DNA of 64,000 bases from a virus (lineage: Duplodnaviria; Heunggongvirae; Uroviricota; Caudoviricetes). The stretch lies in IMG/VR virus record IMGVR_UViG_2675903433_000022, one strand, 5' to 3'. Position 1 is the stretch's first letter; each line of letters begins with the position of its first letter. Made by a program: the position numbers and the translations under genes. Shown here piece by piece: positions 3,260-55,930 of this stretch. Under the pieces are notes generated by a model. The model saw only the letters and a program-made list of their open reading frames with translations. It had not been told where the DNA came from and searched no databases.

Positions 3260-3310
3260 CTCGTTATTAACACATACAAGAAAACAATTTGTTAAAAGGT
3301 AAAGTTAATT

Positions 3311-4135
3311 ATGCCCAACCACATTACAAACGAAATCCGAGTCATAGGTGGTACAAATAAACAACGCTTAGATTTCATACGTGCCATAACTAACAAAAAA
3401 GGTCTAATTGACTTTAATACCATTTGCAGACGTCCGAAAAGTATAGAAATGGAAGAAAACAATCATATCAGGCGCATGGCCTCTGCAATGGCGGGCGAAA
3501 CAGTTTACGACTACATGTTCGGTGAATTAAAGACTCCAGAACAGGTCGAATTAGCTATGCGTGAATCAGGAATGACACGCAAGGAAATTCGCAAAATCAA
3601 AGAGCAGGCTCTTATGCGGCTTGAGAATTATCGTCGCTATGGCTATTACTCATGGTTTGACTGGTCGCGAGCTAATTGGGGAACAAAATGGAATGCCTAC
3701 AACATCGAAATGCCCGTAAAACGTATCCCTACACGTATTAAGTACGGCCATAATTTCCGCCATACACACGTTCGAGCATATGCAAAACGAATCTATAAAA
3801 AACGTCTTGCAAGACATGCCGCAACTGGTGGTGAGTTGGTGATTCGCTTTGAAACAGCCTGGTCTATGCCAAAACCAATTTATCAAGCGATGGCTAGAAA
3901 GTTCCCGCACCTTGAGTTTGTAATACGTTATGCAGACGAAGACTTCGGCAATAACTGCGGACTCGTTTTACTTCGCAACGGCAAATGGGAATATGACTAC
4001 ATTGCACCGGCGAATAACGAACAATCGTCAGAAGAAAAAATCAAATGGCGCAAGTTCGCCTTTGAGTTATGTTGTCCTGGTATCACTCCACAAGAATACG
4101 GTCTAAATGAAGAATACGAATACGCCGGATATTAA
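3311..4135 (+). CDS. hypothetical protein
   Basis: Track ORF 274 aa; preceded by an AAACAAtTTGTT palindrome; Trp-rich segment YSWFDWSRANWGTKW; no assignable function. Confidence 0.6.
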   Translation: MPNHITNEIRVIGGTNKQRLDFIRAITNKKGLIDFNTICRRPKSIEMEENNHIRRMASAMAGETVYDYMFGELKTPEQVELAMRESGMTRKEIRKIKEQALMRLENYRRYGYYSWFDWSRANWGTKWNAYNIEMPVKRIPTRIKYGHNFRHTHVRAYAKRIYKKRLARHAATGGELVIRFETAWSMPKPIYQAMARKFPHLEFVIRYADEDFGNNCGLVLLRNGKWEYDYIAPANNEQSSEEKIKWRKFAFELCCPGITPQEYGLNEEYEYAGY

Positions 4136-4168
4136 AGAATTGTCATTTGGCTTTACGCTCGAAGCATA

Positions 4169-4921
4169 GTGGTTAAGAAGATGAAAAGAAAAATTGAAGA
4201 ACCAAAAACGACACTTAATAAACATGGGGAAAAAATTCAAACACACCCAGCGTTCGGTCTTGTGAAAACAAGCCGTGTTAGCACGACTGGCATTCGTCTA
4301 TTTGATTCAGAACTGGAACATAGAGACTATATTGAAATAGGCGTTTACGAGGCTGAACTATCCTTGGATAATGAACGAACCCGGCCACAAAGGAGTAGCA
4401 ATAGACGGCCTTTAGTTGAAATTAGACTTAGCCAGGCACAATGGGCTGCTATGGTTAGCAGTTTTGGTGTGGGCGAAGGTGTGCCATGCACTATTTCATA
4501 TAAAACCATTGGCGACTCAATTAGAGTTCATGATATTGCCGAGCAAAAAAGTATTCGACAAAAATTCAACGATCAAATAAAGGCAGCTACGAATAGTGAG
4601 ATTGATCGACTTAATCAGCAAGTATCAGAGCTAGGTGAGCTTGTGAAAAAAGGAAGAGCTGGAAAACGTGACCTTGAAGAACTATATAGAAAACTTGCAT
4701 CTGCTGTAGCTAACCTTCCTGAAAATCTGTGCTTTGCTACCGAATTAATGCAGGAGCAAATGGATGAAATTGTCTCATCTGGAAAGGCGGAGATTGAGGC
4801 GTATGTTGCAGGCACTGTTATGCGTAAAGGGTTAGCAGCATTAGGCACAGAATCATGCATTAACGATGCTCCTACTGTCTCTATCACCAAAATGGAAAGC
4901 GGTAAAGAATTACTACCATAA
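4169..4921 (+). CDS. hypothetical protein (alternative ATG start at 4181)
   Basis: Track ORF 250 aa with coiled-coil-like C-terminal half. Confidence 0.55.
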   Translation: MVKKMKRKIEEPKTTLNKHGEKIQTHPAFGLVKTSRVSTTGIRLFDSELEHRDYIEIGVYEAELSLDNERTRPQRSSNRRPLVEIRLSQAQWAAMVSSFGVGEGVPCTISYKTIGDSIRVHDIAEQKSIRQKFNDQIKAATNSEIDRLNQQVSELGELVKKGRAGKRDLEELYRKLASAVANLPENLCFATELMQEQMDEIVSSGKAEIEAYVAGTVMRKGLAALGTESCINDAPTVSITKMESGKELLP

Positions 4922-4941
4922 ATGTATCTGAGGTACTGACA

Positions 4942-5331
4942 ATGCTTTTAATTCAACCTGGGTTCGGTTTAAAGATAAAAAAAGGACATATGTTCGGTTT
5001 CAAAGAATCGAAACGAAAAATTCTGTCCATTAGATTGCCATTTATCACCATTCATTGGTTAAACAGAGAGTCAACCGATTATTGGTATAAATGTGCTCTG
5101 GCCGCATTTAACGACCCTGACTGGTTTATAGAAAACCACCATGCTGTTCGTCAGGCAAAGAGAAAAGCTAATACGACATACATGAAGGCGTATCGGAAGG
5201 CATGGAAAGAACACCGCGATCGATACCAAAAAGACATGGAGAAACTTGAATTGGAAAATATGGATCTAAGAAGGAAGCTCGGTGAAGCACGGCGAGATAT
5301 TGAAGCATATAAACGTCTTGTATCGGAGTGA
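4942..5331 (+). CDS. hypothetical protein
   Basis: Track ORF 129 aa, basic, coiled-coil C-terminus. Confidence 0.5.
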   Translation: MLLIQPGFGLKIKKGHMFGFKESKRKILSIRLPFITIHWLNRESTDYWYKCALAAFNDPDWFIENHHAVRQAKRKANTTYMKAYRKAWKEHRDRYQKDMEKLELENMDLRRKLGEARRDIEAYKRLVSE

Positions 5332-5333
5332 AT

Positions 5334-5468
5334 ATGACTTTACATTGTTTTTTCAAAGGGCATTGCTTTTCACTATACAGAAACAGAAATAATAATGGGG
5401 CATTCTACATATGTAGTAAATGTGGGAGGACAAAATATCTTCCAGATGTCAAATTTGAAGGTCCTTGA
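5334..5468 (+). CDS. possible small Cys-rich (zinc-ribbon-like) peptide, 44 aa
   Basis: ATG 3 bp after the upstream stop; CxxxxxC...CxxC spacing; below the 60-aa track cutoff, read by eye. Confidence 0.3.
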   Translation: MTLHCFFKGHCFSLYRNRNNNGAFYICSKCGRTKYLPDVKFEGP

Positions 5469-5911
5469 ATGTTTGCATTAAATGGGCAATACAGATGATC
5501 ACAACAGACTTTTCTAAATTAAGTGATTTTGAAATTAACAGACGAGTATGTGAGGCTTTAGATATGGAGGAGTATTTCTTCATACCTGATGACGAAGCAG
5601 ATTTCGATTCGGAGATCCCCACTGACGAAAGAGGTCCTGTTTGGCAGACGTCAAAAAGGGATATTAATGGCTTCCGTGCTTCAAACGGAAATTGCTTCAA
5701 TCCTTGCAACAACCCGGCGGACGCAAAGCCCATTATCGTAGAGAACAGAATTGGCATTATTCCTGCGCCAGAAAATGGATTATGGAAGGCAGCGCATAGA
5801 AAGATTGGTAACGATAATACTCCATACCATATGACTCAAAATGTAAATCCACTCCGCGCCGCCATGATTGTCTTTCTGATGATGAAAGAAAGTGAGAGTT
5901 GTACCGATTAA
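5465..5911 (+). CDS. hypothetical protein (start uncertain; alternative ATG at 5495)
   Basis: Track ORF 148 aa, same strand as neighbours. Confidence 0.45.
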   Translation: MNVCIKWAIQMITTDFSKLSDFEINRRVCEALDMEEYFFIPDDEADFDSEIPTDERGPVWQTSKRDINGFRASNGNCFNPCNNPADAKPIIVENRIGIIPAPENGLWKAAHRKIGNDNTPYHMTQNVNPLRAAMIVFLMMKESESCTD

Positions 5912-6210
5912 TGAATATATACGATTTTTTTAAAAAACCTAACACATGTGTCAGAAAAGGGTATAAACCGTCAGTCATCGATTGCTGGTCGCTATCAGCA
6001 AATAATCTCAACAATGTATTCAAAATGCATTGGGAGTTTCTTTGTGAAGCGCGCGGCGTTCTCGACATGACAGTCAGAGAAGCAATTATCTGGATTCTTT
6101 GGTTTCCGGTAAGAACATTTATGACTCTGACGTACCCATTTACCTTCTGGATTTGGGGAACCGTCCTTTATTTCATATTAAAAGGAGAAGTAAAACATGG
6201 CAGCAATTAA
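5899..6210 (+). CDS. hypothetical protein with C-terminal hydrophobic segment
   Basis: Track ORF 103 aa; Trp/Phe-rich hydrophobic stretch IIWILWFPV..FWIWGTVLYFIL. Confidence 0.4.
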   Translation: MYRLMNIYDFFKKPNTCVRKGYKPSVIDCWSLSANNLNNVFKMHWEFLCEARGVLDMTVREAIIWILWFPVRTFMTLTYPFTFWIWGTVLYFILKGEVKHGSN

Positions 6211-6622: not shown

Positions 6623-6677
6623 TCGCCTATTCATAACTAACAAAATAAGTAAACACTAACCACAAAAGGAAAAACAC

Positions 6678-7172: not shown

Positions 7173-7504
7173 AGGCCATCCCATTTGCGCTGTTGTTCCT
7201 TTCTTCGATCGTTGTGGCCGACACCACTGTTTATCAGTGTGAAATGTCTGTAGCCGACGTTAAGAATGGCGCTCTTACCGACGTCATAAAAGCACCATAT
7301 GGAGCGATGGTCGTAGACAGCGGCGACCAGTTCTATGTTGTGCGTGACGATCGAGTGTTGTCATCCCCATATCTCACAAACCGTAATGGCAAATTAACCG
7401 GCGTCGGAGAAGACCACTTCGTATACAACAAATACAAGGGCTTCTATGGCGTTCACGCTTCTCAGCAAAGCTACCTTTTCGATGACTGCAAGGAGGTTGG
7501 ATAA
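7169..7504 (+). CDS. hypothetical secreted protein (N-terminal signal peptide)
   Basis: Track ORF 111 aa; hydrophobic N-terminus MKAIPFALLFLSSIVVA. Confidence 0.55.
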   Translation: MKAIPFALLFLSSIVVADTTVYQCEMSVADVKNGALTDVIKAPYGAMVVDSGDQFYVVRDDRVLSSPYLTNRNGKLTGVGEDHFVYNKYKGFYGVHASQQSYLFDDCKEVG

Positions 7505-7716
7505 TGGCATTAACACTGGCAGGTCTGGAAATCGAGAAAACAAGCGGCTACTGGCGTGCTAAGGGTTTCAAGCAGCCTGGCATTCTTGAGCGTCTGGAAC
7601 GTGAAGATGGGTATATCGTCCACCAGCGGCGTGAATGGCGTATGTACGATCCAGAAACAGGAAAACTGACTACAAAAGCCGGAACACTTTGGGGTCTGTT
7701 AAAGAAAATACACTAA
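7504..7716 (+). CDS. hypothetical protein
   Basis: Track ORF 70 aa; start overlaps the upstream stop. Confidence 0.45.
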   Translation: MALTLAGLEIEKTSGYWRAKGFKQPGILERLEREDGYIVHQRREWRMYDPETGKLTTKAGTLWGLLKKIH

Positions 7717-7763: not shown

Positions 7764-8296
7764 ACCGCTGACAGCATACACAATCAACTACCGCTGATAG
7801 CATATCGAGAGTCTATCTCACCGCTCACAGCATACTTTACTCGATTTTTTACCGCTGACAGCATACTTAAGACATTGCATGAATAATGTGTACCGGTATG
7901 GGTATAACCAGAACAAAATTACCGCTGGCAGCATACGAATGTCTGACATATGCCATTAATTACCGCTGATAGCATATCCAAACAAAAATTCCTCAATAAC
8001 ACACCGCTGACAGCATACGTTATATCAGGGAACAGCAGGCAATAAATGCCTTTCACTACAAGCAATCAGCGCAATAGCAATAGAATGTTAGTGAGCGCAA
8101 ACCTATATGGAATGCACTCTTCGAGGTTAGTAACCACTGGGGAGGTATGACAGAGCATTGAGTGGTGATAGATGATTTACCGCTCACAGCATACGTTCAT
8201 CTCACTATACCGCTGGTAGCATATCTTTAACCGTTCACAGCATACTTTTCAGAAAAATAGCCGCTGATAGCATACATTTCACCGCTGACAGCATAT
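7764..8296. repeat. iteron array, 12 copies of ~16 bp ACCGCTGACAGCATAC-like repeat (incA-like)
   Basis: Copies near 7764, 7790, 7820, 7851, 7921, 7962, 8003, 8179, 8209, 8230, 8260, 8281 with minor variants; abuts the 3' end of the RepA-like gene. Confidence 0.85.
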
Positions 8297-9390
8297 CAAA
8301 GCAGTTTGAGACTATTGGAAAGGATCTCAATCATCTTGATATTTTCAGGCGTCAAATTCTGCGAAAGTTCGGTTATCTTATTGATAATGTTCTGTTTGGC
8401 ATCAATTTCCCCGGCTTTCTCATCTGGTTTTTTGGGTTCGATGTCTTCAGGTTTTGGCGGTGCGACTTTGAGTTTTGGATTGCGGCTGTGAATCTGGATA
8501 TAGATCGACCGCCCACGCTTAATCTCGCTGTATTCGAGATAGCCCAAATCTTGGAGAGCTTTTAAGCCGTTGCGTATAGTCTGATTCTGCGAGCTGACAT
8601 TCCTGCTACTCAAATTGAGTCGCGCACGCAATCGAGCAAGCGATACCGGCGCAGGCTTGGTTGGAAGACTTTCGATGAAGGTGTACAGAGCCTGTGCTGT
8701 TTCTTTGCGTGGTAGCTTATTGATAACCTTTAACTGCAAAAGAACCTTATGGTCAAAGCGATATAGTTCGGCCAGCTTCGGTTCTGCATAGAACACCACC
8801 GTATCTTTCTGCTCGTTGTAGTCCACGCTATTGATGAGGTGCACCATCAGAAGCGAGATCTTGTTAGAGCCGTCGACGTTCTTTTCTTCATACGTTCTCT
8901 GGAAAGACAGAGTTGTACGCATGATCTTCAAAAGACTGTTTGTAAGCCGGTCGCGGAGTGTTTTGCGGATCTGTGACGATGGATAGCCACAAAACTTCGC
9001 AAATTTCGTGATGCTTAACTCGACACGACCGTTAGGTTCGCCGTATTCTGCCAGCGAACGCACAACGCCCACCCACGTTTTGAAATCATGATCCATGTCG
9101 AGACGAGGACCGGTTATCTTGATATCGGAATAGCCTTCAGAACGGGCTACTTCGAGCTGAACAAGCTCCTTTGAAGCATCGATCTCATTTGGCTTGTTAC
9201 GCTTGCTGTATTTTGTCCCCTTGAGCGTGGGCACGAACAACCCCAGCCGCATCAACGCAATTGGTTGGACTGTATTGTTGCTATTAGGGACAAGTTCCCC
9301 TGTGTACAATTCAAGGGAACCTTCTTCAAAGTTGTCGAGATTATCTTCTACTTCTTTGTTATTTTTACCTTTTTTATTTTTTGTGGACAT
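8296..9390 (-). CDS. iteron-flanked replication initiator (RepA-like)
   Basis: Track ORF 8296..9510; likely true start is the ATG at 9390 (MSTKNKK...) because the longer ORF runs into the upstream iterons; call rests on context, not motifs. Confidence 0.7.
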   Translation of the reverse strand: MSTKNKKGKNNKEVEDNLDNFEEGSLELYTGELVPNSNNTVQPIALMRLGLFVPTLKGTKYSKRNKPNEIDASKELVQLEVARSEGYSDIKITGPRLDMDHDFKTWVGVVRSLAEYGEPNGRVELSITKFAKFCGYPSSQIRKTLRDRLTNSLLKIMRTTLSFQRTYEEKNVDGSNKISLLMVHLINSVDYNEQKDTVVFYAEPKLAELYRFDHKVLLQLKVINKLPRKETAQALYTFIESLPTKPAPVSLARLRARLNLSSRNVSSQNQTIRNGLKALQDLGYLEYSEIKRGRSIYIQIHSRNPKLKVAPPKPEDIEPKKPDEKAGEIDAKQNIINKITELSQNLTPENIKMIEILSNSLKLL

Positions 9391-9410
9391 GTGGACACCT
9401 TTGTCATTCA

Positions 9411-9512
9411 ACCGCTGACAGCATACTTGATTTGCCGCTGGCAGCATACCAAAAACAGTTGGTAGCATACGGCGAACCGTTGACAGACTATCAATTACCG
9501 CTGGCAGCATAC
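9411..9512. repeat. iteron array, 5 copies (incC/origin-proximal set)
   Basis: Same ACCGCTGACAGCATAC family (two degenerate) immediately upstream of the RepA start. Confidence 0.8.
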
Positions 9513-17544: not shown

Positions 17545-17650
17545 CATATGGTGGGGGATATCCCCACCTTCTCTTTGATTTGTAAGCCTTGTTTAAACAC
17601 ATAAGATAACAACTTGTTTAAACGCACCAAAAAAGAAAAAGGAAAAACAC

Positions 17651-27803: not shown

Positions 27804-27896
27804 CGGCTGTTAGTGCATATGCATTGACCATCTTTGCGTAAGCAATTTATGTAATTAGAAAACAACTTGTTTTGACAAATAATAAAAGGAAAACAC

Positions 27897-28508: not shown

Positions 28509-28619
28509 CGTTGACCGAAATAGAGAGTTTGCACCTTTACGTTTAGCTTGCTCCCCTTTTATGCCACATCACAATAAAGCCAATAAGAAAACAACTTGTT
28601 TAAGCATTAGGAAAAACAC

Positions 28620-29226: not shown

Positions 29227-29327
29227 CGCCTTAAATCTGCTGTAACGCCTATGAATGCAGCTTTTATGCCTTTTCAATTTTGTAATAATTACACCAATAA
29301 GAAAACAATTTGTTTAATGGTGTAATT

Positions 29328-32210: not shown

Positions 32211-32297
32211 AAATAAATTGTTTTCTACCTTTTCTTATTTGTGAAAATAAACCAGCACTTGGTAGTGCTTATGTAACAGCAAAGAAGAGAAAAACAC

Positions 32298-37415: not shown

Positions 37416-37431
37416 GTATCACTTCTCCATT

Positions 37432-37452
37432 AAGGCCACAACTAGTGGCCTT
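37432..37452 (+). terminator. stem-loop terminator (AAGGCC..GGCCTT family)
   Basis: AAGGCCACAACTAGTGGCCTT followed by the TTGTTTTCTAC..GAGAAAAT cassette. Confidence 0.5.
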
Positions 37453-37538
37453 AAACAATTTGTTTTCTACGTTTTCTTATTTGAGAAAATCACGTTGTTG
37501 GCAGCTCATAGGCTTGTTGTTATACATAGCTGTATAGA

Positions 37539-39079: not shown

Positions 39080-40180
39080 TCACACTGCGCGGAATGCGAT
39101 TTCGCCAGGTATTACTTCACCTTGCCAATACATTTGGGCAGCAACGCGATCTGCGAGGTCACGATAAATAGCCGTAAATTCGCTATCTGGACGACTAATA
39201 ACGGTTGGTGTTCCGTTATCCAGATCTTCACGAAGAGAGATATGAAGTGGCATTTGGCCTAACAACTGCGTGTTGTATTTCTCGGCCAGTTTCTGTGCGC
39301 CACCGGTGCCAAAAATTGGCTCGTGATGACCGCAGTTACTGCAAATATGCATACTCATGTTCTCGACAATACCGAGCACCGGAACCTCGACTTTCTCGAA
39401 CATCACAATGCCTTTTTTCGCATCGATCAACGCGATGTCCTGCGGCGTAGTTACCACAACCGCACCAGTTACAGGAATGTTCTGCGCCAGCGTCAATTGA
39501 ATATCACCAGTGCCCGGCGGCATATCGAGAACGAGATAGTCCAGATCAGGCCATAGAGTTTCCTGCAACATCTGCATTAACGCCTTGCTCGCCATCGGAC
39601 CACGCCACACCATCGCATTGTCGTCAGTTACCAGATAACCAATTGAATTGGTTGCCAGTCCATGAGACATAATCGGTGCCATGTGAGTACCGTCCGGTGA
39701 GGTTGGACGTTGGTTTTCCGCGCCAAGCATGGTTGGAATTGATGGCCCGTAGATATCGGCATCCAAAATACCAACTTTCGCACCTTCAGCAGCCAACGCC
39801 AGTGCCAGGTTTACCGCCGTGGAGGATTTACCAACGCCGCCCTTGCCTGAGCTGACGGCGATAATGTTCTTAACGCCATTAATGCCTGGTTGGTTTTTGA
39901 CGCGCTTAAGCGTGGCAATGTTGTACGACAGCTTCCAGTCGATAGCCTTTGCGCCAGTGATACGGAGCAGATCACCACTACATTGCTCTTTCAGGTCTTC
40001 AAAAGGCTTATTCCACACGAAAGGCATGATTAGTTCGACATGCAGTGTGTCATCCATCAACGCAACATGGTGTAACGCTTTAAGCGTAGTCAGGTTGTGT
40101 TTCAGGGTTGGGTGCTGAAAATTAGCCAGCGTACCGGCTACCATTGCTCTCAGGGCATCCGGCGATTTGGACTCGCTCAT
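39080..40180 (-). CDS. apbC: Fe-S cluster carrier ATPase Mrp/ApbC
   Basis: 366 aa; deviant Walker A SGKGGVGKS; reads as near full-length enterobacterial Mrp by recall. Confidence 0.9.
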   Translation of the reverse strand: MSESKSPDALRAMVAGTLANFQHPTLKHNLTTLKALHHVALMDDTLHVELIMPFVWNKPFEDLKEQCSGDLLRITGAKAIDWKLSYNIATLKRVKNQPGINGVKNIIAVSSGKGGVGKSSTAVNLALALAAEGAKVGILDADIYGPSIPTMLGAENQRPTSPDGTHMAPIMSHGLATNSIGYLVTDDNAMVWRGPMASKALMQMLQETLWPDLDYLVLDMPPGTGDIQLTLAQNIPVTGAVVVTTPQDIALIDAKKGIVMFEKVEVPVLGIVENMSMHICSNCGHHEPIFGTGGAQKLAEKYNTQLLGQMPLHISLREDLDNGTPTVISRPDSEFTAIYRDLADRVAAQMYWQGEVIPGEIAFRAV

Positions 40181-40337
40181 CCCGTCTCCTTTATTTTAAT
40201 TTGCGCAATTGTCGCCTTGTAGTGTACTCCAGCTACGGCATTTAATCATTTATGAGAAATGCTGTTATCACATGGCAGACATAAGGCCATTTTGTTACTA
40301 TCAAGCCCCTTTTCACTACAAAGAAGTAATGCCTACT

Positions 40338-42418: not shown

Positions 42419-42533
42419 CATATAGACACAATCCCTTCTGATTTACACAGTACCTAAAACAATTTGTTTTCTGCCTTTTGTTGATGGAGATAATAAACCA
42501 CATAAGAAAACAACTTGTTTTGGAGTGGTTGAA

Positions 42534-43055: not shown

Positions 43056-43189
43056 CCAAACCGTTGATAATGGCGGTCACAATTTGATTCTTTTCTATAA
43101 GAATCCGTTGATCGCCACTACTCCCCTTCCATACCTGCAATCATATCCTTAAATATCAATAGGTTATAGTTGTTTGCACAAACAAGAAA

Positions 43190-43930
43190 ACAACTGAATA
43201 ACAGATCAACGAAACGTCAACGCTTTCTCCCGATTTGGTCTAAAAAATTGACGTTTTCACACATCACTTCTTATACCCGTAATTCTACGCAGCAGATAGC
43301 GCCACAGCGTTCAATTTTCACCACAGACGACTCAACACACTACCAACAAAAACACACGCTCAAAATCGCTCCCGTTGCGTTACACAACCATATAAACAAC
43401 TTATTTTCAGGTATAACAAAACAACTAAATAACACATACGCCATTACCAAAAACAACCAACCTCTTTATGGCAGGCTACCGAAAAGACCCACCTCTTCTT
43501 CCCAGGCTACCGGACAGCCAACCTAACTTTCACAGGCAATCCGAAAACATTCATACGCGCGATACCCACGACACGCCATTACCCAAACATCGAAGAAACA
43601 CCAGAATCACTGAAACCCCAACGAAGTCTGTAACCGCAAGGCTTCTCTCAATCCCAAAAGACACGAAACATAACAATCACGGGAAACGCCATTACCCAAT
43701 ACACGAATAACTACAAAAGCCCTTCACACACTCCAGACAAACAACTCAAACACAATAACGAAAGGAATAGCCCACCTGCCATTACTCCATATACGGAGAA
43801 GAACAATAACCATAACGACGAGAACACCCCATAGAAGAACCACCGCAAAACGAACGAAACCACATACACCGACAGAGAAAACAACACACCCAATCCACCA
43901 ACAGAAATAGTCGCCCTATAGAACGTTCTG
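43190..43930. repeat. strand-asymmetric A/C-rich, G-poor noncoding tract with internal repeated modules
   Basis: About 740 bp with almost no G runs on the plus strand; recurring ACGCCATTACC(C)AA and CAGGCTACCG..CCACCT units; track ORFs here are low-complexity artefacts. Confidence 0.5.
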
Positions 43931-44119
43931 GTAGGAGTGAGCATTAACGCCTATAGAGAGGTTGAGACAGATAAAACACGAAGAAAACACAACATGTATA
44001 GCGAAGAAGCCAGGTATGTATAAGTGGGGAGGGAAGGAGGGGTGTCGCCTCCTTTTTCGTATTTATTCAACTCCTGATTTTATCCCCCGTAACACCCCTA
44101 CGGTCAGCCTTCGGTCCAT

Positions 44120-44265: not shown

Positions 44266-44612
44266 GCGAGAGAGAGTTGCGGCTACCCACCTGTAATGTG
44301 CGGTAAGAAGAGAGGCGCTCACGTGCAGGCGAACTTACTTACCGCTGGATTCCCTCTGAATGCCCAGCTACAGCGTAATTGTGCCAGACAGTCAGCGGGT
44401 CACAATCGATTTCAGTAGGTTTTCGGGGAGGGGATTATTCTGCCCACCAGCCATCTTCGGCCATTAAATCAGAATAATGTAAAAAGTGTACTCGGTACTG
44501 AACCTGAAAACTCACTGCCAAAACCACATTCACCGGAATAAAATCCTTTTTAGCCTTTGCGTTATTGCGATAATAACACCATCAAGAAAACATGTTGTTT
44601 AAGGATTGCTTT

Positions 44613-44942: not shown

Positions 44943-45096
44943 ACCCAACCAAAGCCAGCAATGCTGGCTTAACTTCATCTGTAGCCGCAGGGAAGAACCT
45001 GCATATCGCTCATGCGCCTGATCAATATGCTTTGTAGCCGTTTTCTTACTGGTATTATTTACGCCATTGAGAAAACAAGTTGTTTACGGAGTTGTG

Positions 45097-45968: not shown

Positions 45969-46046
45969 GCCCGATAACAATTTGTTTTCTACCTTATCTG
46001 ATTTGTGAAAATGATTTCACTGAAGCAACTTAATAAGGAAACCATC

Positions 46047-46421: not shown

Positions 46422-46771
46422 ATATGGGCGATTTCAAGAAACGCCTGAAGGAAAGAGCCGAGATGGTCAGAAAGCAAAACGCCTCTTCTGTCATCAGATA
46501 TGCAAGGCAGTTTAGTCGCAACAACAAATCAGTTGAGGAAAAGATCCTTAGCGTAATCGGGCGATAATTATTAAGGCCATCAGCATTGGTGGCCTTAAAT
46601 GACCATCCTGTTTCCCGCAGGCTAAAAACACCAACCTCTTACCTCCAGGCAACCGACAAACCCACCTGTTCCCGTCCGGCTACCGCAACTTTCCACTTTG
46701 ACGCCTTATTCGTACAACGATAATTAACACCAACAAGAAAACAATTTGTTATTTACGATAAGGAATTAATC

Positions 46772-47254
46772 ATGAATTTTATCGCTACTGTAAACGCACC
46801 CGCACATGGCAATATCGTTGTAACGTTCTCTGACATTGAAAAACGAGTACTTGGTGCCTGGCGTCACAATGAGACGGTAGAACTGTCAGAACAAGAAAAA
46901 TGCATTATTTCACGCGACATCATTGGCAATCGTCGTTACTCGCGGGTATTTGAGAAAGCGTATGTGGTAAATTCTGGATTCGGAACGTTCGTCTTTCCGG
47001 TGCGCTCCGGGCGATTCTGCCAGTCCAAGCTGATTGAGTTCGCTACGCAGATTTCTGTCTGGATTAAAACTCAATCGTCGTTCAAATTTTCCGACGATGA
47101 AGCAGTATCGCAGGGGATGCGGATCGCCAACAATGCGATTAAATGCAAAAACATTACGTATACCGCTGGCGTTGATACATGGAAACTGTTTTGCGCTAAC
47201 TTTATGCTGAATGTATACGCAAGCAACCGCATCCACATCCTTGATGGCGTGTAA
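46772..47254 (+). CDS. hypothetical protein
   Basis: Track ORF 160 aa after an AAACAAtTTGTT palindrome. Confidence 0.5.
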   Translation: MNFIATVNAPAHGNIVVTFSDIEKRVLGAWRHNETVELSEQEKCIISRDIIGNRRYSRVFEKAYVVNSGFGTFVFPVRSGRFCQSKLIEFATQISVWIKTQSSFKFSDDEAVSQGMRIANNAIKCKNITYTAGVDTWKLFCANFMLNVYASNRIHILDGV

Positions 47255-49618: not shown

Positions 49619-50143
49619 TCAAAAAGGCAAAATTCGCTCAACCCAATCGAACAAAACAACTATTTTTCTACCGTTCTCGACACGTAGTGTAACCTGACAA
49701 GCATCTGCGCCTGCTGACACTCCCTCAATTTCACGGCCATCCGCCATGTACACCCTTATAGATTTGTTTGCTTTGTAGGCTTGGTTGCAAATTGCAAAAA
49801 AATCGCGGCGTGATGGCCGATTATCGACATAATCAGGGTGAACTGTTAGTCGACCTTTGAAATCGTGAGCGATACTGTCAACCACACCTGATTCAATTGT
49901 ACTAATGCGTTCAAGTGGGAGCCTTATACGATTTTCTTTATCAAAAGGGGCTGGGCAAAGGTCAACTTTGTTACGAGATGGCATGAGGCCATAAACGTAC
50001 ATGCAAAACGCCTGGCCATCTTCGAGAGTGACCCTTACAGGAATTTGTTCTCTGCGCCAGAACATCAGTAGTTTTTCAACGTTAGTGTAATCTCGCGGCC
50101 AGAGTTCAGCTTGGATACCGTAGGTAATATCTTTGGTTGTCAT
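49619..50143 (-). CDS. hypothetical protein
   Basis: Track ORF 49619..50221; start moved to the ATG at 50143 (MTTKDITYG), 4 bp after the upstream stop. Confidence 0.45.
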   Translation of the reverse strand: MTTKDITYGIQAELWPRDYTNVEKLLMFWRREQIPVRVTLEDGQAFCMYVYGLMPSRNKVDLCPAPFDKENRIRLPLERISTIESGVVDSIAHDFKGRLTVHPDYVDNRPSRRDFFAICNQAYKANKSIRVYMADGREIEGVSAGADACQVTLRVENGRKIVVLFDWVERILPF

Positions 50144-50147
50144 GTCA

Positions 50148-50612
50148 TCACAGAGTTGTTGGCAGAATGTCGATGTCACCAGAATTGCTGGTGAACACCC
50201 TGAACGCTTTTGTGTCTCCATTCTTCAGAGTCGTTTCTCGCTCTTGACGAGCGGGGTTTAGAGCACATAAACCTGCACCTTCAAGAGATGCACCCACAAT
50301 TAATTCTCCGGCATTTAAATGGAAAGTCGCTTTTTCGCCTGTAGCCAGTTTTGCGACAGTTTCGCCGTTGATGAAAATGGAAGCATCACATCCAGCTCCT
50401 ACAAAACCTGTGTCTCTCATTACCACCAACGTAGCTGGCGCTGCGCTTTGATACTTGAACACTTTGGCCTGCGGTGCTGGTTTGGCGTCATGGATTGATA
50501 TTGGGCGTGATTGGCACGCGGTAAGCATCAACACTGGTAACGTTAGTAGAGGGAGAAGCGAGTATTTCATGATAGTTTTAGAACAGAAAGTGAACAGTAT
50601 GGGAGACTTCAT
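50148..50612 (-). CDS. putative lipoprotein
   Basis: Lipobox LTAC after a hydrophobic segment; AGGGAG RBS before the ATG at 50612 (alternative start at 50570). Confidence 0.55.
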   Translation of the reverse strand: MKSPILFTFCSKTIMKYSLLPLLTLPVLMLTACQSRPISIHDAKPAPQAKVFKYQSAAPATLVVMRDTGFVGAGCDASIFINGETVAKLATGEKATFHLNAGELIVGASLEGAGLCALNPARQERETTLKNGDTKAFRVFTSNSGDIDILPTTL

Positions 50613-50638: not shown

Positions 50639-50917
50639 TTATTTTAATCTGCTTAATAGCGTTTCGAGATCTTCCTTTGTCATATTAGAGTTCTCATAGA
50701 TACGCATGATTTTCTCACGAGTCTTAGCGGAAGCCCCGACAGAAGATATAACCTTGTCAAAGTCGGCCATTGTCAATTGTTCCAGAATGGTATTTATGAC
50801 TTCAGCCTTAGACATTTTGATATTTTTTTCTTTTAGTTTCACTTGAAACTTTCCAAGTTTGTCATTGGCCTTATCAGACAATGCTACCTGACAATAAGTT
50901 GTTTTCTTTTCACTCAT
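50639..50917 (-). CDS. hypothetical protein
   Basis: Track ORF 92 aa immediately downstream of the helicase gene. Confidence 0.5.
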   Translation of the reverse strand: MSEKKTTYCQVALSDKANDKLGKFQVKLKEKNIKMSKAEVINTILEQLTMADFDKVISSVGASAKTREKIMRIYENSNMTKEDLETLLSRLK

Positions 50918-50919
50918 AA

Positions 50920-52543: not shown

Positions 52544-53242
52544 GTGGATTGTAGCAATAAAATGGATGTAAAAATCACGATTTTGCAGGTTGATGTTGCC
52601 AACCTTCGCCCGAATACCTGGAACACCAATTCGGTTGGTGCGCAGAATTTTGAAAAACTGAAAGGTTCTATCGAAAAATTGGGCTTTTTTAAGCCAATTT
52701 TGGCTCGTGAACTTGAAGATGGATTTTTTGAAATCCTCGGCGGCGAACATCGCTGGCGTGCTGCTATTGAGCAAGGAATTTCAACGGTTCCGGTGCTTTC
52801 TGTGGGCAAAATTAGCGATGTCGTAGCTAAACAGATGTCACTGGTGGACAACGAGCGATACGGTGAAGACGACCAAATCGCATTGCAACGCTTCATTGAA
52901 GAAATTCAGTCAGAACTTGACTATCAACTGTCTGAAATCGCCCCGTATGACGACGAAATCTCGATGGTTTTAGCAAAAGAGGCGGCAATCGACCTTGAAG
53001 CACTGGAGGCGTTGTCTCGTGGTAGTGATGAGCCTGTCGATACCGACAAACGAGAGAAAACCGAACGTGTGGGGGCGGAACATCAGACCATGCGCTTCAA
53101 AGTAACTTTCGATGCGTCAGATCGTGTTGCAGAAACCATAAAAAACATCATCAAAGAGCAGGCTATTAACACCGGTAATGAAATGGAGAACGCTGGTGAG
53201 GCTCTGGTGTGGCTGGTCGACTACTACAAGGAGCGTATGTAA
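52544..53242 (+). CDS. ParB-like nuclease domain protein 1 (start may be ATG 52562)
   Basis: ParB N-terminal domain signature ILGGEHRWRAA. Confidence 0.7.
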   Translation: MDCSNKMDVKITILQVDVANLRPNTWNTNSVGAQNFEKLKGSIEKLGFFKPILARELEDGFFEILGGEHRWRAAIEQGISTVPVLSVGKISDVVAKQMSLVDNERYGEDDQIALQRFIEEIQSELDYQLSEIAPYDDEISMVLAKEAAIDLEALEALSRGSDEPVDTDKREKTERVGAEHQTMRFKVTFDASDRVAETIKNIIKEQAINTGNEMENAGEALVWLVDYYKERM

Positions 53243-53910
53243 TGACCAAAAAGTTTGAAATCGTATATCGCGACCCGGCAGATCTTATTCCCTATGAGAT
53301 GAATGCCAAAAAGCATGATGAACAGCAGATCCGAGATCTGGCCGCAGCCATTAAAAAGCGCGGATTTGACCAGCCAATTACGGTCGATAAGAACGACGTA
53401 ATTATTACTGGCCACGGCCGCCGTGAGGCTGCAATTTTTGCTGGACTTGAGCGCGTGCCGGTTATTGTTCGCGATGATCTCAGTGATGACGAGGTTCGTG
53501 CGAAGCGCCTTGAAGATAACCGACTTGCCAGCATTGATTACGATGCAATTAAGCTACAGAAAGAGCTTGAGTCGCTTGTTCTGGACGATATCGAGGTTTT
53601 CGGCTTTGAAGAGCGTGAGTTGAATGTTCTCGTTGGCAGTATGACAGAAGAAATGGACACCGACTCGCTAGTTATCGATCTTGGCGAAGAAACTAAACGA
53701 CAGAAGGATGAACACACCGAGATCAGTCGCGAAGTTGCAGCGGAAGAAGTACGTGTTGTCGACGTATTGGGCTTTAAAACGCTTCCTGCTGGCTCTGCCA
53801 TTGTTGTTGGTGATTTGCTTGCCCACATGGAAGAAATGACGGGAGAGAGCGGGGTAGACGCATTTGTGGCATATGCGGAGAAGATCTCTTCCGGGGAGAT
53901 GGCTGCATGA
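53242..53910 (+). CDS. ParB-like nuclease domain protein 2
   Basis: Track ORF 53209..53910, ATG 53242; signature ITGHGRREAA. Confidence 0.7.
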   Translation: MTKKFEIVYRDPADLIPYEMNAKKHDEQQIRDLAAAIKKRGFDQPITVDKNDVIITGHGRREAAIFAGLERVPVIVRDDLSDDEVRAKRLEDNRLASIDYDAIKLQKELESLVLDDIEVFGFEERELNVLVGSMTEEMDTDSLVIDLGEETKRQKDEHTEISREVAAEEVRVVDVLGFKTLPAGSAIVVGDLLAHMEEMTGESGVDAFVAYAEKISSGEMAA

Positions 53911-54572
53911 GCAAATACATCATCAACGTATCGTTTCAGACTCGCGTAAATAAAACCACGCGCACATTGGAAATCGCTGAGTCGTTCGGGCTTGGCCTGG
54001 ACGAAAAAGAGTGGACGCTTTACGACAATCTGGAGCTGGAAGTGAAGCAGGGCGATGTGGTGTACATCACCGGCCAATCCGGTTCCGGCAAATCCGTTGT
54101 GCTGCGCGAGTTGCAACGACAGATGAAGGATGAAGGGCTGTCTGTAGCCTCCATCGATGATTTTACCTTCGATAATGAGGTTAACGTCATCGATCAGTTG
54201 GGCAAAACGACCAGTGATGCGCTTGGGTTGTTATCTATGGCTGGTCTGAACGATGCATATCTGTTTGTTCGCAAGCCTTCTGAAATGTCAGACGGCCAGA
54301 AATATCGTCTCAAGATTGCCAAACTGATTGAGTCAGGCGCTAAAGTGTGGGCTGCTGACGAGTTCGGCGCTGTTCTCGACCGTGTAACCGCTCAGGTTGT
54401 GGCGTCTAACCTCCAGCGTGCCGCTCGAAAGGTTGGTGCGACGGTAATGGTGGCGACGACTCACGAAGACCTGAAGAACGCGCTGCGCCCGGATATGCAG
54501 ATCACCAAGCACTACAAAGAACGCGTGAAGGTGGAATATCACAATGGTAGTCATGATGAGGTCCATTCATGA
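53907..54572 (+). CDS. ABC-type ATPase domain protein (no transmembrane domain)
   Basis: Walker A GQSGSGKS, signature-like SDGQKYR, Walker B VWAADEFG, H-loop TTHE. Confidence 0.65.
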   Translation: MSKYIINVSFQTRVNKTTRTLEIAESFGLGLDEKEWTLYDNLELEVKQGDVVYITGQSGSGKSVVLRELQRQMKDEGLSVASIDDFTFDNEVNVIDQLGKTTSDALGLLSMAGLNDAYLFVRKPSEMSDGQKYRLKIAKLIESGAKVWAADEFGAVLDRVTAQVVASNLQRAARKVGATVMVATTHEDLKNALRPDMQITKHYKERVKVEYHNGSHDEVHS

Positions 54573-55459
54573 CGGACATCATCATTAAACGCTACCGCCC
54601 TGAAGAGTTTCCGCGTCATCTGGACTTTCTGGAGCGAATGACTGTTACAAAGGGAACTGTAGAGGACTGGCACGCTCTTAAGTCGCTTCACTACAAAACA
54701 GACGGCAAACCTTTCGCGCCAACTTACTATCGCTGCGAACTTGATGACCGTCTGGTGGGCGTCGTGGTTATGGCTTACCCGAAACTACTGTTGGCACCTC
54801 GCCACCGCATGTTTCCTAAGTTGAAACCAACCACTAATACCACCGTGGCTAACCAGTACTGGGGTCGGTACGTGAATAACAACTTTGCGGTGATCAGTCG
54901 CTCAGTTGTGGATACTCAGTATCGTGGCGTAGGCGTCTCTTATCGAATGATTAACCTGGTTAGCAGGATGCATGACCGGCCAATCATTGAGATCCAGTCC
55001 TCGATGAGCAAATACAATCCCTTCGCCATGAAAGCAGGGTTTAAGTTCATCCGCCCTGAGCGACCGAAGAGCTATGAAAGTGCACTGCGTGTATTCCAGC
55101 GCCATTTCCGTTCCGACCCGGGTGATAACGAGGCGATCGTCAAAGAGTTGTTCGCAATGAGCGAGTCTCGTCGTCGCCGTGCACTGCGTGATCTGGTGGC
55201 GGACTACCACAAGAACAGTTCCCTGGCAAAAGCTGGGCGGAATCGTGGCACTACGATTCAGGACATTGCCGACAGTCTGGTGGACGAGGCCAGCATTGTG
55301 AAGCTGCTCAAGGACATTCACAACCTGAGCTTTACGTCTCCGTTGTATGGTGTGTACCGAAACCCTGACTTTGGCCGTCGACTGCCTGACACGCTGCCAC
55401 TGCTGGCATTCGACAAACAACCTTTGGATAAACCGTTAGAAATTGCTTTACCGGCATAA
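54569..55459 (+). CDS. GNAT-like acyltransferase domain protein with C-terminal extension (tentative)
   Basis: Motif A-like VVDTQYRGVGVSYRMINLV and motif B-like NPFAMKAGFKFI. Confidence 0.45.
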   Translation: MTDIIIKRYRPEEFPRHLDFLERMTVTKGTVEDWHALKSLHYKTDGKPFAPTYYRCELDDRLVGVVVMAYPKLLLAPRHRMFPKLKPTTNTTVANQYWGRYVNNNFAVISRSVVDTQYRGVGVSYRMINLVSRMHDRPIIEIQSSMSKYNPFAMKAGFKFIRPERPKSYESALRVFQRHFRSDPGDNEAIVKELFAMSESRRRRALRDLVADYHKNSSLAKAGRNRGTTIQDIADSLVDEASIVKLLKDIHNLSFTSPLYGVYRNPDFGRRLPDTLPLLAFDKQPLDKPLEIALPA

Positions 55460-55468
55460 GGATTTGCC

Positions 55469-55735
55469 ATGACGTTAACCGACAAACAAAAGGACATCAT
55501 CAAAACGCTCAATCTCGGTTATGAGCGAGGTCATCTACTTGATCTGGACGAATTGCTTGAAGTTTTGCCGTACAAGACAACCAAGCAAAGTATCCAGTTC
55601 TCAATTCGCGCTCTGATAAAAAAGGGGCTGGTGGAGAAAGGGCATACGCGCCAACGCAGTGACAATCGCTATCACCGCCGGACTCTTGGGTTAACCACTT
55701 TAGGTCGAGCCAAAGCGAAGTTACTGGTGATGTAA
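55469..55735 (+). CDS. small winged-helix DNA-binding protein (tentative)
   Basis: 88 aa; helix-turn-helix-like segment and basic C-terminus. Confidence 0.4.
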   Translation: MTLTDKQKDIIKTLNLGYERGHLLDLDELLEVLPYKTTKQSIQFSIRALIKKGLVEKGHTRQRSDNRYHRRTLGLTTLGRAKAKLLVM

Positions 55736-55759
55736 TCGGTCTGGGAGCTTATTTAAAGA

Positions 55760-55816
55760 CCTGCTTCTGTATATATAAATAATAAGTAACTTATTAAATA
55801 TATACGGAAGCAGGCT
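55760..55816. repeat. long inverted repeat, copy 2 of 2
   Basis: CCTGCTTCTGTATATAT ... ATATATACGGAAGCAGG, near-identical arms to the element at 25361-25419. Confidence 0.6.
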
Positions 55817-55930
55817 TCGTAAGACATGCCAGACCTAATTAAACACCCCAGAAAACAAGTTGGTTAGCAGATGCAGTAAACAAGTTGTTTTAGAGCGCAT
55901 GGACGCGCTCTGTGTGTTTTAGAGGGATCT

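What the first reader, a model, noticed from the sequence alone, without database searches (positions are those of the whole stretch)
3281..55891. Element-wide palindromic motif AAACAAnTTGTTT in intergenic regions
At least 14 copies of (A)AGAAAACAA-n-TTGTTT(T) lie 20-60 bp upstream of start codons, near 3283, 17608, 27860, 28587, 29301, 32216, 37455, 42458, 42506, 44586, 45071, 45976, 46736 and 55878, with half-sites near 43185 and 55850. A perfect 6+1+6 inverted repeat at this frequency implies a dimeric DNA-binding regulator or a dedicated promoter element. Some copies are too close to the ATG to be a conventional -35 element.
Basis: seen in the sequence. Interest (0 to 1): 0.6.

Follow-up and report, generated by a model that had tools for sequence, protein, structure and literature searches.

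The report
Shared operator palindrome of phage-plasmid promoters
A 13-base palindrome (AAACAA-n-TTGTTT) sits at one of two fixed positions on about 16 promoters in this SSU5/pHCM2-type phage-plasmid; it is most likely the common binding site of one still-unidentified repressor that keeps most of the phage genes switched off.

Summary
AAACAAnTTGTTT occurs 8 times exactly (0.02 expected) and 16 times with at most 1 mismatch (0.49 expected). 15 of 16 sites are intergenic in a window that is 86% coding.

The window is 64 kb of an SSU5/pHCM2-type phage-plasmid, about 97% identical to Escherichia phage Cyrano.

The palindrome is attached to a family of similar promoter cassettes with extended -10 elements. 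It takes two discrete positions: +8..+20, just after a conserved leader "AATAAGA", or -44..-32. At one promoter it takes both.

The same 13-mer, with a free central base, marks about 20 promoters in Cyrano, SSU5 and two Klebsiella lineages that are only about 59% identical in protein. Sites have been gained, lost and moved between the two positions at orthologous promoters. Two relatives, from Pectobacterium and Moellerella, keep the cassette but lack the palindrome.

An RNA hairpin is not credible (about -0.6 kcal/mol, no compensatory changes, no Rfam hit). Genes behind the sites are silent in a published lysogen transcriptome.

Best reading: the dispersed operator of a dimeric repressor, comparable to P1 C1 or RK2 KorA/KorB. 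The binder was not identified. Several candidates were excluded or weakened. Those still open are the Cra-like, 160-aa, FljA-like and ParG-like proteins, or a host factor. No paper searched mentions the motif.

The parts
3282..3294 (.). Site, class A (behind the promoter); AAACAATTTGTTA; 16 nt before the ATG at 3311. Heads the operon that ends with the Cra-like gene.
   Evidence: The -10-like hexamer is weak here (CGTTAT, 3/6).
17607..17619 (.). Site, class A geometry; TAACAACTTGTTT; 31 nt before the nrdB ATG at 17651.
   Evidence: Conserved in SSU5, absent in Klebsiella-1. No convincing -10 (2/6).
27860..27872 (.). Site, class A; AAACAACTTGTTT; 24 nt before the tciA-like ATG at 27897.
28589..28601 (.). 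Site, class A; AAACAACTTGTTT; 18 nt before the ATG at 28620. -10-like CACAAT at 28570-28575.
29303..29315 (.). Site, class A; AAACAATTTGTTT; 12 nt before the DUF4942 gene ATG at 29328. Extended -10 TGT-AATAAT at 29284-29289.
32211..32223 (.). Site, class B (in front of the promoter, -44..-32); AAATAAATTGTTT. Follows a hairpin at 32190-32210. Extended -10 TGT-GAAAAT at 32243-32248.
37453..37465 (.). Site, class B; AAACAATTTGTTT. Follows a hairpin at 37430-37454. TGA-GAAAAT at 37485-37490. No + strand gene downstream in this window. This module is shared with a P1 variant.
42457..42469 (.). Site, class B, on the same promoter as 42508 (centres 51 bp apart); AAACAATTTGTTT.
   Evidence: The same double arrangement occurs at SSU5 88319/88370 and Klebsiella-1 1712/1763.
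42489..42494 (+). -10 hexamer GATAAT of the promoter flanked by sites 42457 and 42508.
42508..42520 (.). Site, class A; AAACAACTTGTTT; 13 nt before the ATG at 42534 (DUF5983 protein).
43170..43195 (.). Cluster of half-sites, TTGTTTgcacAAACAAgAAAACAA, in a non-coding A/C-rich stretch.
43394..43406 (.). Site with one mismatch, AAACAACTTATTT, in the same non-coding stretch. Orthologous sites at SSU5 90740 and Cyrano 94605.
44588..44600 (.). Site, class A; AAACATGTTGTTT; 12 nt before the ATG at 44613. TGC-GATAAT at 44569-44574.
45073..45085 (.). Site, class A; AAACAAGTTGTTT; 11 nt before the ATG at 45097. TGG-TATTAT at 45053-45058.
45975..45987 (.). Site, class B; TAACAATTTGTTT. Follows a terminator (GGCGCG..CGCGCC + T-run). 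TGT-GAAAAT at 46007-46012.
46739..46751 (.). Site, class A; AAACAATTTGTTA; 20 nt before the ATG at 46772. GATAAT at 46719-46724 with TTGACG upstream.
   Evidence: The orthologous gene in Klebsiella-1 has the site in class B position instead.
55853..55865 (.). First of two tandem sites (centres 25 bp apart) in the leader of the late (terS) operon; AAACAAGTTGGTT. CCTAAT at 55834-55839.
55878..55890 (.). Second late-leader site; AAACAAGTTGTTT; 40 nt before the terS ATG at 55931.
7504..7716 (+). Cra-like 70-aa gene. CANDIDATE binder only: its distribution matches that of the motif. Not established.
   Evidence: The fold model was too poor to judge.
46772..47254 (+). 160-aa gene of unknown function. 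CANDIDATE binder only: its distribution matches that of the motif and its own promoter carries a site.
49619..50221 (-). FljA-like gene (PF03614). CANDIDATE only: its distribution matches and it is expressed in the lysogen, but the family is known as an mRNA-binding repressor of flagellin.
55469..55735 (+). 88-aa winged-helix-like gene next to the late promoter. Weakened candidate.
   Evidence: The recognition helix is unchanged in the motif-less Pectobacterium plasmid.

Best explanation
The palindrome is the common operator of one sequence-specific DNA-binding protein that binds as a dimer or a pair of dimers and represses a family of about 16-20 similar promoters scattered over the phage-plasmid.

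Each promoter is a sigma-70-type cassette: a weak -35, 'GCC-TTTT', often a TGn extended -10 (GATAAT-like), then a conserved start region TAACACC-AATAAGA.

The operator lies at +8..+20, where a bound protein would block promoter escape or early elongation. Alternatively it lies at -44..-32, where it would block RNA polymerase binding. On one promoter (42457/42508) both positions are used, and the late terS leader carries two tandem copies.

Because the replication, nucleotide-metabolism, partition, accessory and late (terS) operons all carry the site, one protein would hold most of the phage programme down in the plasmid-prophage state.

Shown: the motif, its enrichment, its two fixed geometries, its conservation and turnover, and the silence of the downstream genes in a lysogen.

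Inferred: that the cassettes are promoters, that a protein binds the palindrome, that the effect is repression, and when in the life cycle it acts.

The binder is unknown.
For: Enrichment: 8 exact against 0.02 expected and 16 against 0.49 at <=1 mismatch. 15 of 16 sites are intergenic. The motif is also the top intergenic k-mer family found de novo in Cyrano and SSU5.

Geometry: -10-like hexamers pile up at exactly two offsets among 83 non-identical site contexts from 5 elements. 21 start 19 nt before the palindrome and 17 start 32 nt after its first base, against a background of 1.6 per offset. 32 of these 44 carry TGn.

Symmetry: the central base is unconstrained (C25, T20, A19, G19). Mismatches are one-sided and spread over both arms.

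Conservation: 18 sites in Cyrano, 20 in SSU5, 20 in Klebsiella plasmid NZ_CP055187 and 14 in NZ_CP054987. The first Klebsiella plasmid shares only about 59% median protein identity with Cyrano, and the intergenic flanks have diverged.

Turnover and position switching: nrdB and cobT have the site in some lineages only. Three orthologous genes carry it at +14 here but at -38 in Klebsiella-1, where the leader keeps only the half AAGAAAACAA. Interchangeable positions fit repression and not activation.

Separability: the Pectobacterium and Moellerella relatives keep the cassette and its AATAAGAAAA start but have no palindrome.

Expression: in the LF82 lysogen (Cyrano), the first genes behind the sites are near the detection floor, with mean log2(FPKM+5) of 3.14 against a floor of 2.32 (data from PMC9928086).
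Against: No binding protein was identified.

The simple sigma-70 scanner did not call these promoters, because their -35 elements are poor. Three class A sites (3282, 17607, 27860) have only weak -10-like hexamers.

The lysogen RNA-seq shows no step-up of expression across motif-bearing gene junctions (p = 0.70). It therefore neither confirms the promoters nor separates 'repressed' from 'not activated'.

The parA operon has a site at +14 and is nevertheless expressed in the lysogen at 50-90 FPKM.

The fixed spacings could partly reflect copy-and-paste of whole cassettes rather than functional constraint.
Confidence: 0.6

Rival explanations
1. Same operator idea, but the protein is a host transcription factor of Enterobacteriaceae/Yersinia rather than a product of the element. 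The phage-plasmid plugs its promoters into a host regulon.
For: The 13-mer is identical in lineages whose own proteins are only about 59% identical. The motif is present in elements from Escherichia, Salmonella, Klebsiella, Kluyvera and Yersinia, and absent in those from Pectobacterium and Moellerella. Every small DNA-binding candidate of the element has some mark against it.
Against: I could recall no known E. coli regulator with this consensus. KdgR (AAACAnTGTTT) differs in half-site spacing. This rests on memory and was not tested. Three element proteins do match the motif's distribution.
Confidence: 0.15
2. The palindrome is the site of an activator that switches on early or middle promoters (class II-type activation from about -38). 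The genes are silent in the lysogen simply because the activator is absent.
For: Class B sites are centred near -38 on promoters with a poor -35 and an extended -10. All linked genes are off in the lysogen. The winged-helix genes of the element are themselves silent there.
Against: Most sites in this window lie at +8..+20, where activation is very unusual. Those sites are too close to the start codon (11-31 nt) for any promoter to fit downstream of them. Orthologous promoters swap between -38 and +14, which would not preserve activation. Several cassettes have good -10/TGn elements and should fire without help.
Confidence: 0.1
3. The element works as RNA. The leader AAUAAGAAAACAAnUUGUUU would be bound by an RNA-binding repressor, for example the FljA-like/Sm-like protein encoded at 49619-50221, or would form a hairpin that controls translation or stability.
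For: Class A sites are in the predicted 5' leader, 11-31 nt from the start codon. The FljA-like protein (PF03614, with a weak Hfq-like match) has exactly the motif's distribution and is expressed in the lysogen. FljA proteins repress fliC through its mRNA leader (PMC2652032).
Against: The hairpin is worth about -0.6 kcal/mol or nothing, and the leaders are no more structured than shuffles. There are no compensatory changes. There is no Rfam match. Class B sites lie upstream of the predicted start and dominate in Klebsiella-1, where the leaders keep only one arm. The mirrored C4/G10 points to dyad recognition of duplex DNA.
Confidence: 0.08
4. There is no dedicated binder. The palindrome is just part of a mobile promoter cassette that has been copied around the genome and marks module boundaries, like the PeSL cassettes of T4-type phages.
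For: The whole cassette is conserved, not only the palindrome. Some indel breakpoints fall on sites: 3299 is 11 bp from site 3282, and 29269 is 40 bp from site 29303. 23% of breakpoints against Klebsiella-2 lie within 120 bp of a site, against 8% expected.
Against: Breakpoint enrichment is absent against Cyrano and SSU5 (11-13% against 8%). The palindrome is the best-conserved part and occurs at two different places in the cassette. It is present or absent independently of the cassette. The free central base with fixed arms is a binding-site signature.
Confidence: 0.07

Closest known systems
Phage P1 C1 repressor and its dispersed operators
   Same: It is a phage-plasmid in which one repressor controls many operons through operators scattered over about 100 kb. 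The operators overlap or follow promoters.
   Different: The C1 operator is an asymmetric 17-mer (ATTGCTCTAATAAATTT, from memory), not a 6+1+6 palindrome. No C1 homologue is annotated in Cyrano or SSU5. The binder here is unknown.
RK2/IncP KorB (OB sites) and KorA (OA sites)
   Same: They are 12-13-bp palindromes (OB is also 6+1+6) spread over a plasmid as a global repression network. Class I OB sites lie just upstream of the -35, like class B here. The repressor doubles as a partition protein.
   Different: The sequence is different (TTTAGCSGCTAAA, from memory). The two ParB-like genes of this element (52544-53910) are silent in the lysogen and are conserved in the motif-less relatives.
pSM19035 omega / TP228 ParG (RHH partition proteins that also repress)
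   Same: The element has a short ParA plus a ParG-like RHH protein. That protein's own promoter carries the palindrome, and it is expressed in the lysogen. Two abutting inverted 6-7-bp subsites would suit two RHH dimers, as for omega heptads (from memory).
   Different: There is only one site at the par promoter, not an array. The protein is missing from Yersinia pMT1-type plasmids that keep the motif. Its beta-strand is almost unchanged in the motif-less Pectobacterium plasmid.
PeSL mobile promoter cassettes of T4-type phages
   Same: They are repeated early-promoter-plus-inverted-repeat cassettes in front of small accessory genes in a plastic genome region.
   Different: Here the inverted repeat is a short AT-rich 13-mer with no hairpin stability. 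It sits at two alternative positions. Its link with recombination breakpoints is weak.

Membership tests
Dispersed operator set of a phage/plasmid global repressor (P1 C1, RK2 KorA/KorB type) | Many copies of one short motif, far above chance, confined to intergenic regions. | tested here: met
Dispersed operator set of a phage/plasmid global repressor (P1 C1, RK2 KorA/KorB type) | Copies overlap or directly follow promoters at defined positions. | tested here: met
   -10-like hexamers peak at two fixed offsets. The promoters themselves are predicted, not mapped.
Dispersed operator set of a phage/plasmid global repressor (P1 C1, RK2 KorA/KorB type) | A cognate DNA-binding protein encoded by the element (or host) binds the motif. 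| tested here: inconclusive
   Distribution and conservation screens excluded or weakened RHH-92, wHTH-88, wHTH-71, CYRAN_43 and CYRAN_45. They left the Cra-like, 160-aa, FljA-like and ParG-like proteins or a host factor.
Dispersed operator set of a phage/plasmid global repressor (P1 C1, RK2 KorA/KorB type) | Target genes are repressed when the protein is present. | tested here: inconclusive
   Target genes are at floor level in the LF82 lysogen. No derepressed comparison is available.
P1 C1 operators specifically | Asymmetric 17-bp consensus ATTGCTCTAATAAATTT. | tested here: not met
   The sequence is a symmetric 6+1+6 palindrome. The C1 consensus is recalled from memory.
RK2 KorB OB sites specifically | TTTAGCSGCTAAA bound by a ParB-family protein. 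| tested here: not met
   The sequence is different. The ParB-like genes do not track the motif.
Sigma-70 promoter core element (-35 or -10) | Located at -35 or -10 relative to the transcription start. | tested here: not met
   The palindrome is at +8..+20 or -44..-32 relative to the -10-like hexamer.
Structured RNA leader / known RNA family | Stable conserved hairpin with compensatory changes, or an Rfam match. | tested here: not met
   About -0.6 kcal/mol, z close to 0. One-sided variants only. No Rfam hit.
PeSL-like mobile promoter cassette | Cassettes coincide with boundaries of exchanged gene modules. | tested here: inconclusive
   Enriched against Klebsiella-2 (23% against 8%). Not enriched against Cyrano or SSU5.
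LexA (SOS) box | CTGT-N8-ACAG. | tested here: not met
   The sequence as read.

The most novel reading that the evidence does not exclude
The palindrome is bound by the element's own ParG/omega-like RHH partition protein. That protein would then be both the centromere-binding partner of the short ParA and the global silencer of about 20 phage promoters, coupling plasmid segregation and copy number to prophage silencing. Rising copy number on induction would titrate it and release the lytic programme.
Probability: 0.15. Interest if true: 0.7.

Novelty: new member of a known kind. Interest (0 to 1): 0.45.

Why it matters
SSU5/pHCM2-type phage-plasmids are common. About 800 records in PLSDB carry the family's marker genes. 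They include pHCM2 of S. Typhi, pMT1-related plasmids of Y. pestis, and many Klebsiella and E. coli plasmids, some carrying CTX-M-15.

How they stay quiescent as plasmids and switch to phage production is not known. No paper in the searched library mentions this motif.

A single operator shared by the replication, partition, nucleotide-metabolism, accessory and late operons gives a concrete handle on that switch. It defines the regulon and predicts about 20 promoters. It also makes the repressor directly fishable by DNA pull-down.

The contrast with motif-less relatives that have the same backbone is a natural experiment in rewiring a regulon.

Tried and rejected
**Candidate binders**
- RHH-92 (50639-50917, - strand) was rejected. 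Its predicted DNA-facing beta-strand residues differ among lineages that share the identical motif. The motif-like stretch at its start codon is not conserved in SSU5.
- wHTH-88 (55469-55735) was weakened. Its recognition helix is unchanged in the motif-less Pectobacterium plasmid.
- wHTH-71 (CYRAN_37, outside the window) first looked best. It is absent from Pectobacterium, and its model resembles a MarR-type winged helix (pLDDT 78, TMq 0.6-0.7). However, it is missing from Klebsiella plasmid NZ_CP054987, which keeps 13-14 good sites. It is found in only 637 of about 800 family plasmids and is silent in the lysogen.
- CYRAN_43 and CYRAN_45 (the annotated 'repressor' module) were rejected. Both are absent from SSU5, CYRAN_43 occurs in only 56 records, and there is no palindrome in the intergenic region of CYRAN_45.
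- Cra-like protein: the fold model was too poor (pLDDT 57) to use. P1 Cra has no such site nearby.
- Homologue searches for wHTH-71, ParG-like and Cra-like found only this plasmid family, so there is no independent context to test.

**Tests and searches that gave no signal**
- The sigma-70 consensus scanner did not detect the cassettes.
- The RNA-seq step-up test at motif-bearing junctions was negative.
- The viral-contig scan for the extended motif returned mostly chance singletons.
- T4-type late promoter (TATAAATA): there was no enrichment beyond a repeated hairpin element.
- No replacement operator was found in Pectobacterium.
- A 2026 bioRxiv paper on phage-plasmid heteroresistance was listed but could not be read.

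Full report
**What the window is.** A 21-kb core of the window matches Escherichia phage Cyrano (pLF82), phage PhiR41_1 and many 105-112-kb non-mobilizable plasmids of E. coli, E. albertii and Shigella at 96-98% identity. It matches Salmonella phage SSU5 more distantly. Against the Cyrano annotation the window runs from the recombination genes through repA, sbcCD, nrdAB, thyX and dam. It continues through a long block of small accessory genes, metG and a minus-strand cluster (FljA-like, RHH, UvsW), then two ParB-like genes, and into the terminase and head genes. It is therefore about 60% of an SSU5/pHCM2-type phage-plasmid.

- AAACAAnTTGTTT occurs 8 times exactly against 0.02 expected. It occurs 16 times with at most one mismatch against 0.49, and 21 times with at most two mismatches against 6.25. 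No shuffle out of 100 reached the observed count.
The 'half-site' at 55850 is a full one-mismatch site (55853), and there is an additional site at 43394.
- 15 of 16 sites are intergenic in a window that is about 86% coding.
- An unbiased k-mer count on the intergenic regions of Cyrano and SSU5 returns this motif as the top family.

**Anatomy.** Aligning the sites shows two context classes.
- Class A (3282, 17607, 27860, 28589, 29303, 42508, 44588, 45073, 46739, 55853): the palindrome follows a conserved block, ...TTKnnn-GCC-TTTT...(TGn)GATAAT-TAACACC-AATAAGA-[AAACAAnTTGTTT]-A. It ends 11-31 nt before a ribosome-binding site and start codon.
- Class B (32211, 37453, 42457, 45975): the palindrome comes first, often right after a terminator-like hairpin. 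It is followed by TCTACC-TTTT...TGT-GAAAAT, which is the same cassette.
- Over 83 non-identical site contexts from five elements, -10-like hexamers peak at exactly two offsets. 21 start 19 nt before the palindrome and 17 start 32 nt after its first base, against a background of 1.6 per offset. 32 of these 44 have a TGn extension.
- Taking the hexamer as -12..-7, the palindrome lies at +8..+20 (class A) or -44..-32 (class B).
- At 42457/42508 both positions flank one GATAAT, with centres 51 bp apart. The same double arrangement recurs in SSU5 and in a Klebsiella plasmid.
- The late (terS) leader carries two tandem sites 25 bp apart.
- In this window, seven of ten class A sites and all four class B sites have a hexamer scoring at least 4/6. 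Three class A sites (3282, 17607, 27860) do not. The generic sigma-70 scanner misses the cassettes because their -35 is poor. That these are promoters is therefore my inference.

**Comparative evidence.**
- The motif marks 18 sites in the whole Cyrano genome, including the parA, dnaB and cobT operons outside the window. Within the 28-kb structural cluster there are none apart from the two in front of terS.
- SSU5 has 20 sites. Klebsiella plasmid NZ_CP054987 has 14.
- Klebsiella plasmid NZ_CP055187 also has 20 sites, although its proteins are only about 59% identical to Cyrano's (median).
- The 13-mer is the same in all of them and the central base is free (C25, T20, A19, G19). Variants are single and one-sided. 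Alignments of orthologous upstream regions show the palindrome standing out from diverged flanks.
- Sites turn over. nrdB and cobT have one in some lineages only, and terS has two or one.
- Most tellingly, in NZ_CP055187 most sites are in the class B position, and the leaders keep only the half AAGAAAACAA. Three genes that carry a class A site in this window (42534, 45097, 46772) carry a class B site there.
- Two further relatives with the same backbone lack the palindrome altogether: Pectobacterium plasmid Drgb1 and Moellerella pW18-2-b. Both retain the cassette and its AATAAGAAAA start.
- So AATAAGAAAA(CAA) belongs to the promoter cassette, probably as the initial transcribed sequence. The full palindrome is a separable, movable module.

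**What it most likely does.** The signature is that of a duplex-DNA site for a dimeric protein: a symmetric 6+1+6 site with a free centre, fixed arms, one-sided degeneracy, strict intergenic location, conservation with turnover, and two alternative promoter-overlapping positions.
- Both positions (over the -35 region and just downstream of the start) are classic for repression.
- A site at +14 is not a plausible activator site. The 11-31 nt left before the start codon cannot hold another promoter.
- The swap between -38 and +14 at orthologous promoters would preserve repression but not activation.
- Published RNA-seq of the Cyrano lysogen LF82 (PMC9928086, supplementary table) shows the genes directly behind the sites at floor level. 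The exception is the parA operon, at 50-90 FPKM.
- The same data show no step-up across motif-bearing junctions (p = 0.70). They agree with silent promoters but do not prove them.

**RNA alternative.** The hairpin would be worth about -0.6 kcal/mol at best. The leaders are no more structured than shuffles. There are no compensatory changes, and Rfam finds nothing in the window. Class B sites lie upstream of the predicted start.

**Who binds?** This remains open. I screened by distribution across four motif-bearing elements and two motif-less ones. I also used conservation of the predicted DNA-contacting parts, expression in the lysogen, and prevalence among the roughly 800 family plasmids in PLSDB.

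| Candidate | Finding |
|---|---|
| RHH-92 (50639-50917, - strand) | Excluded: DNA-facing residues vary among lineages sharing the motif |
| CYRAN_43 / CYRAN_45 module | Excluded: patchy distribution, absent from SSU5 |
| wHTH-88 (55469-55735) | Weakened: recognition helix unchanged in Pectobacterium |
| wHTH-71 (outside the window) | Weakened: winged-helix-like model, but absent from a Klebsiella clade that keeps the sites; silent in the lysogen |
| ParG-like RHH partition protein | Still possible: expressed in the lysogen, has a site on its own promoter, and two abutting inverted subsites would suit RHH dimers; but it is missing from Yersinia plasmids, and a Yersinia family member keeps the motif |
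| Cra-like (7504-7716) | Still possible: distribution matches the motif exactly; fold model unusable |
| 160-aa protein (46772-47254) | Still possible: distribution matches the motif exactly |
| FljA-like (49619-50221, - strand) | Still possible on distribution, but its family represses flagellin through mRNA |
| Host factor | Cannot be excluded |

**Comparison with known systems.** In function this resembles the dispersed C1 operators of phage-plasmid P1 and the KorA/KorB operator network of RK2. If the ParG-like protein is the binder, it resembles omega of pSM19035. It is a member of none of them by sequence. The cassette arrangement recalls the PeSL elements of T4-type phages, but the association with recombination breakpoints is weak. 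No paper in the searched library contains any of the motif strings. The papers on SSU5-type phage-plasmids that I could read do not describe an operator.

**Verdict.** This is a genuine, strongly non-random, family-wide regulatory motif. It is best explained as the operator of an unidentified repressor acting on a promoter-cassette family. It is a new example of a known kind of system. It is of moderate interest because it defines the regulon of a widespread and clinically relevant group of phage-plasmids and makes the missing repressor directly testable.

Noticed in passing
window 2133, 15168, 24719, 26934, 31017, 45476, 52529, 59327 (12-mers): A second, unrelated dispersed palindrome, (a)TAG-GTAAGTnCTTAC-CTA(t). 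There are 8 sites at <=1 mismatch against 1.3 expected, 12 in Cyrano, 17 in SSU5, and none meaningful in Pectobacterium. It lies in the 17-bp spacer of sigma-70-like promoters (for example TTGAAA-ataagtcagtacttact-TATGAT at 59327), centred near -19.5. It sits in front of nrdA, dam, ead and the ParB-like operon, and inside the structural cluster. One copy lies next to the CYRAN_45 HTH gene in Cyrano. This could be a second regulon, recalling P1 late promoters.
   Followed up: partly
window 25363-25417 and 55760-55814: Two copies of a long inverted repeat, CCTGCTTCTGTATA..(loop containing TATAAATA)..TATACGGAAGCAGG. That makes 4 arm matches against 0.02 expected, and a third copy lies in Cyrano at about 31195. 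One copy sits just upstream of the late promoter. Its function is unknown; it could be a bidirectional terminator or another protein site.
   Followed up: partly
window 55892-55919: A terminator-like hairpin, AGAGCGC-atgga-GCGCTCT followed by GTGTGTTTT, lies between the second late-leader site and the terS start codon. It is conserved in SSU5, Yersinia and Kluyvera but not in Klebsiella plasmid NZ_CP055187. It hints at attenuation or antitermination control of the late operon.
   Followed up: partly
cassette leaders, e.g. window 29295-29308; Pectobacterium L131 757, 4671: The start region AATAAGAAAA, right after the -10, is conserved in promoter cassettes of all lineages, including those without the palindrome. 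Why an A-rich initial transcribed sequence is kept is unexplained.
   Followed up: partly
window 49619-50221 (- strand): A full-length FljA homologue (PF03614, E = 2.5e-84), the 'repressor of phase-1 flagellin', is near-universal in this plasmid family (835 PLSDB records). It suggests that these phage-plasmids shut down host flagellin.
   Followed up: partly
window 43056-43960: About 900 bp without a convincing gene. It is strongly A/C-rich on the + strand (GC skew -0.15, AT skew +0.17 for 42-44 kb) and holds motif half-sites and one full site. The equivalent region is conserved in SSU5 and Klebsiella. It may be an origin-like or non-coding RNA region.
   Followed up: no
window about 25935-26260: A tiny ORF (CYRAN_81 equivalent) is 95-98% conserved with SSU5 while its neighbours are about 80% conserved. 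It is expressed 12-fold above background in the LF82 lysogen and lies next to a G+C-rich palindrome, GCACGCGTGTGCGCACGCGCG. It may be a small RNA rather than a protein.
   Followed up: no
window 8296-9510 (- strand): The RepA of this element is only about 50% identical to Cyrano's, although the flanks are 97-100% identical. This looks like a replicon swap within an otherwise near-identical backbone.
   Followed up: no
window 3300-6180: A block of about 2.9 kb (4-5 genes) is absent from Cyrano and SSU5. It begins 11 bp after site 3282, so the insertion or exchange point coincides with the cassette.
   Followed up: partly
window 37380-37560; L137 6780-6935: A P1 variant (MH422554) shares the module that carries class B site 37453, including the hairpin and the cassette. 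It lies next to the lxr/humD genes.
   Followed up: partly
window 39080-42371: Host-like genes metG (methionyl-tRNA synthetase) and an apbC/MinD-like ATPase are carried by the element. This stretch has a higher G+C content (about 0.50).
   Followed up: no
Pectobacterium L131 18188 and 47414 (+), 47322 (-); L132 about 15283 (-): The motif-less Pectobacterium plasmid has its own repeated element, TCTATAAATAyTATGGGAGCRCGG, in four copies. One copy lies just upstream of terS.
   Followed up: no
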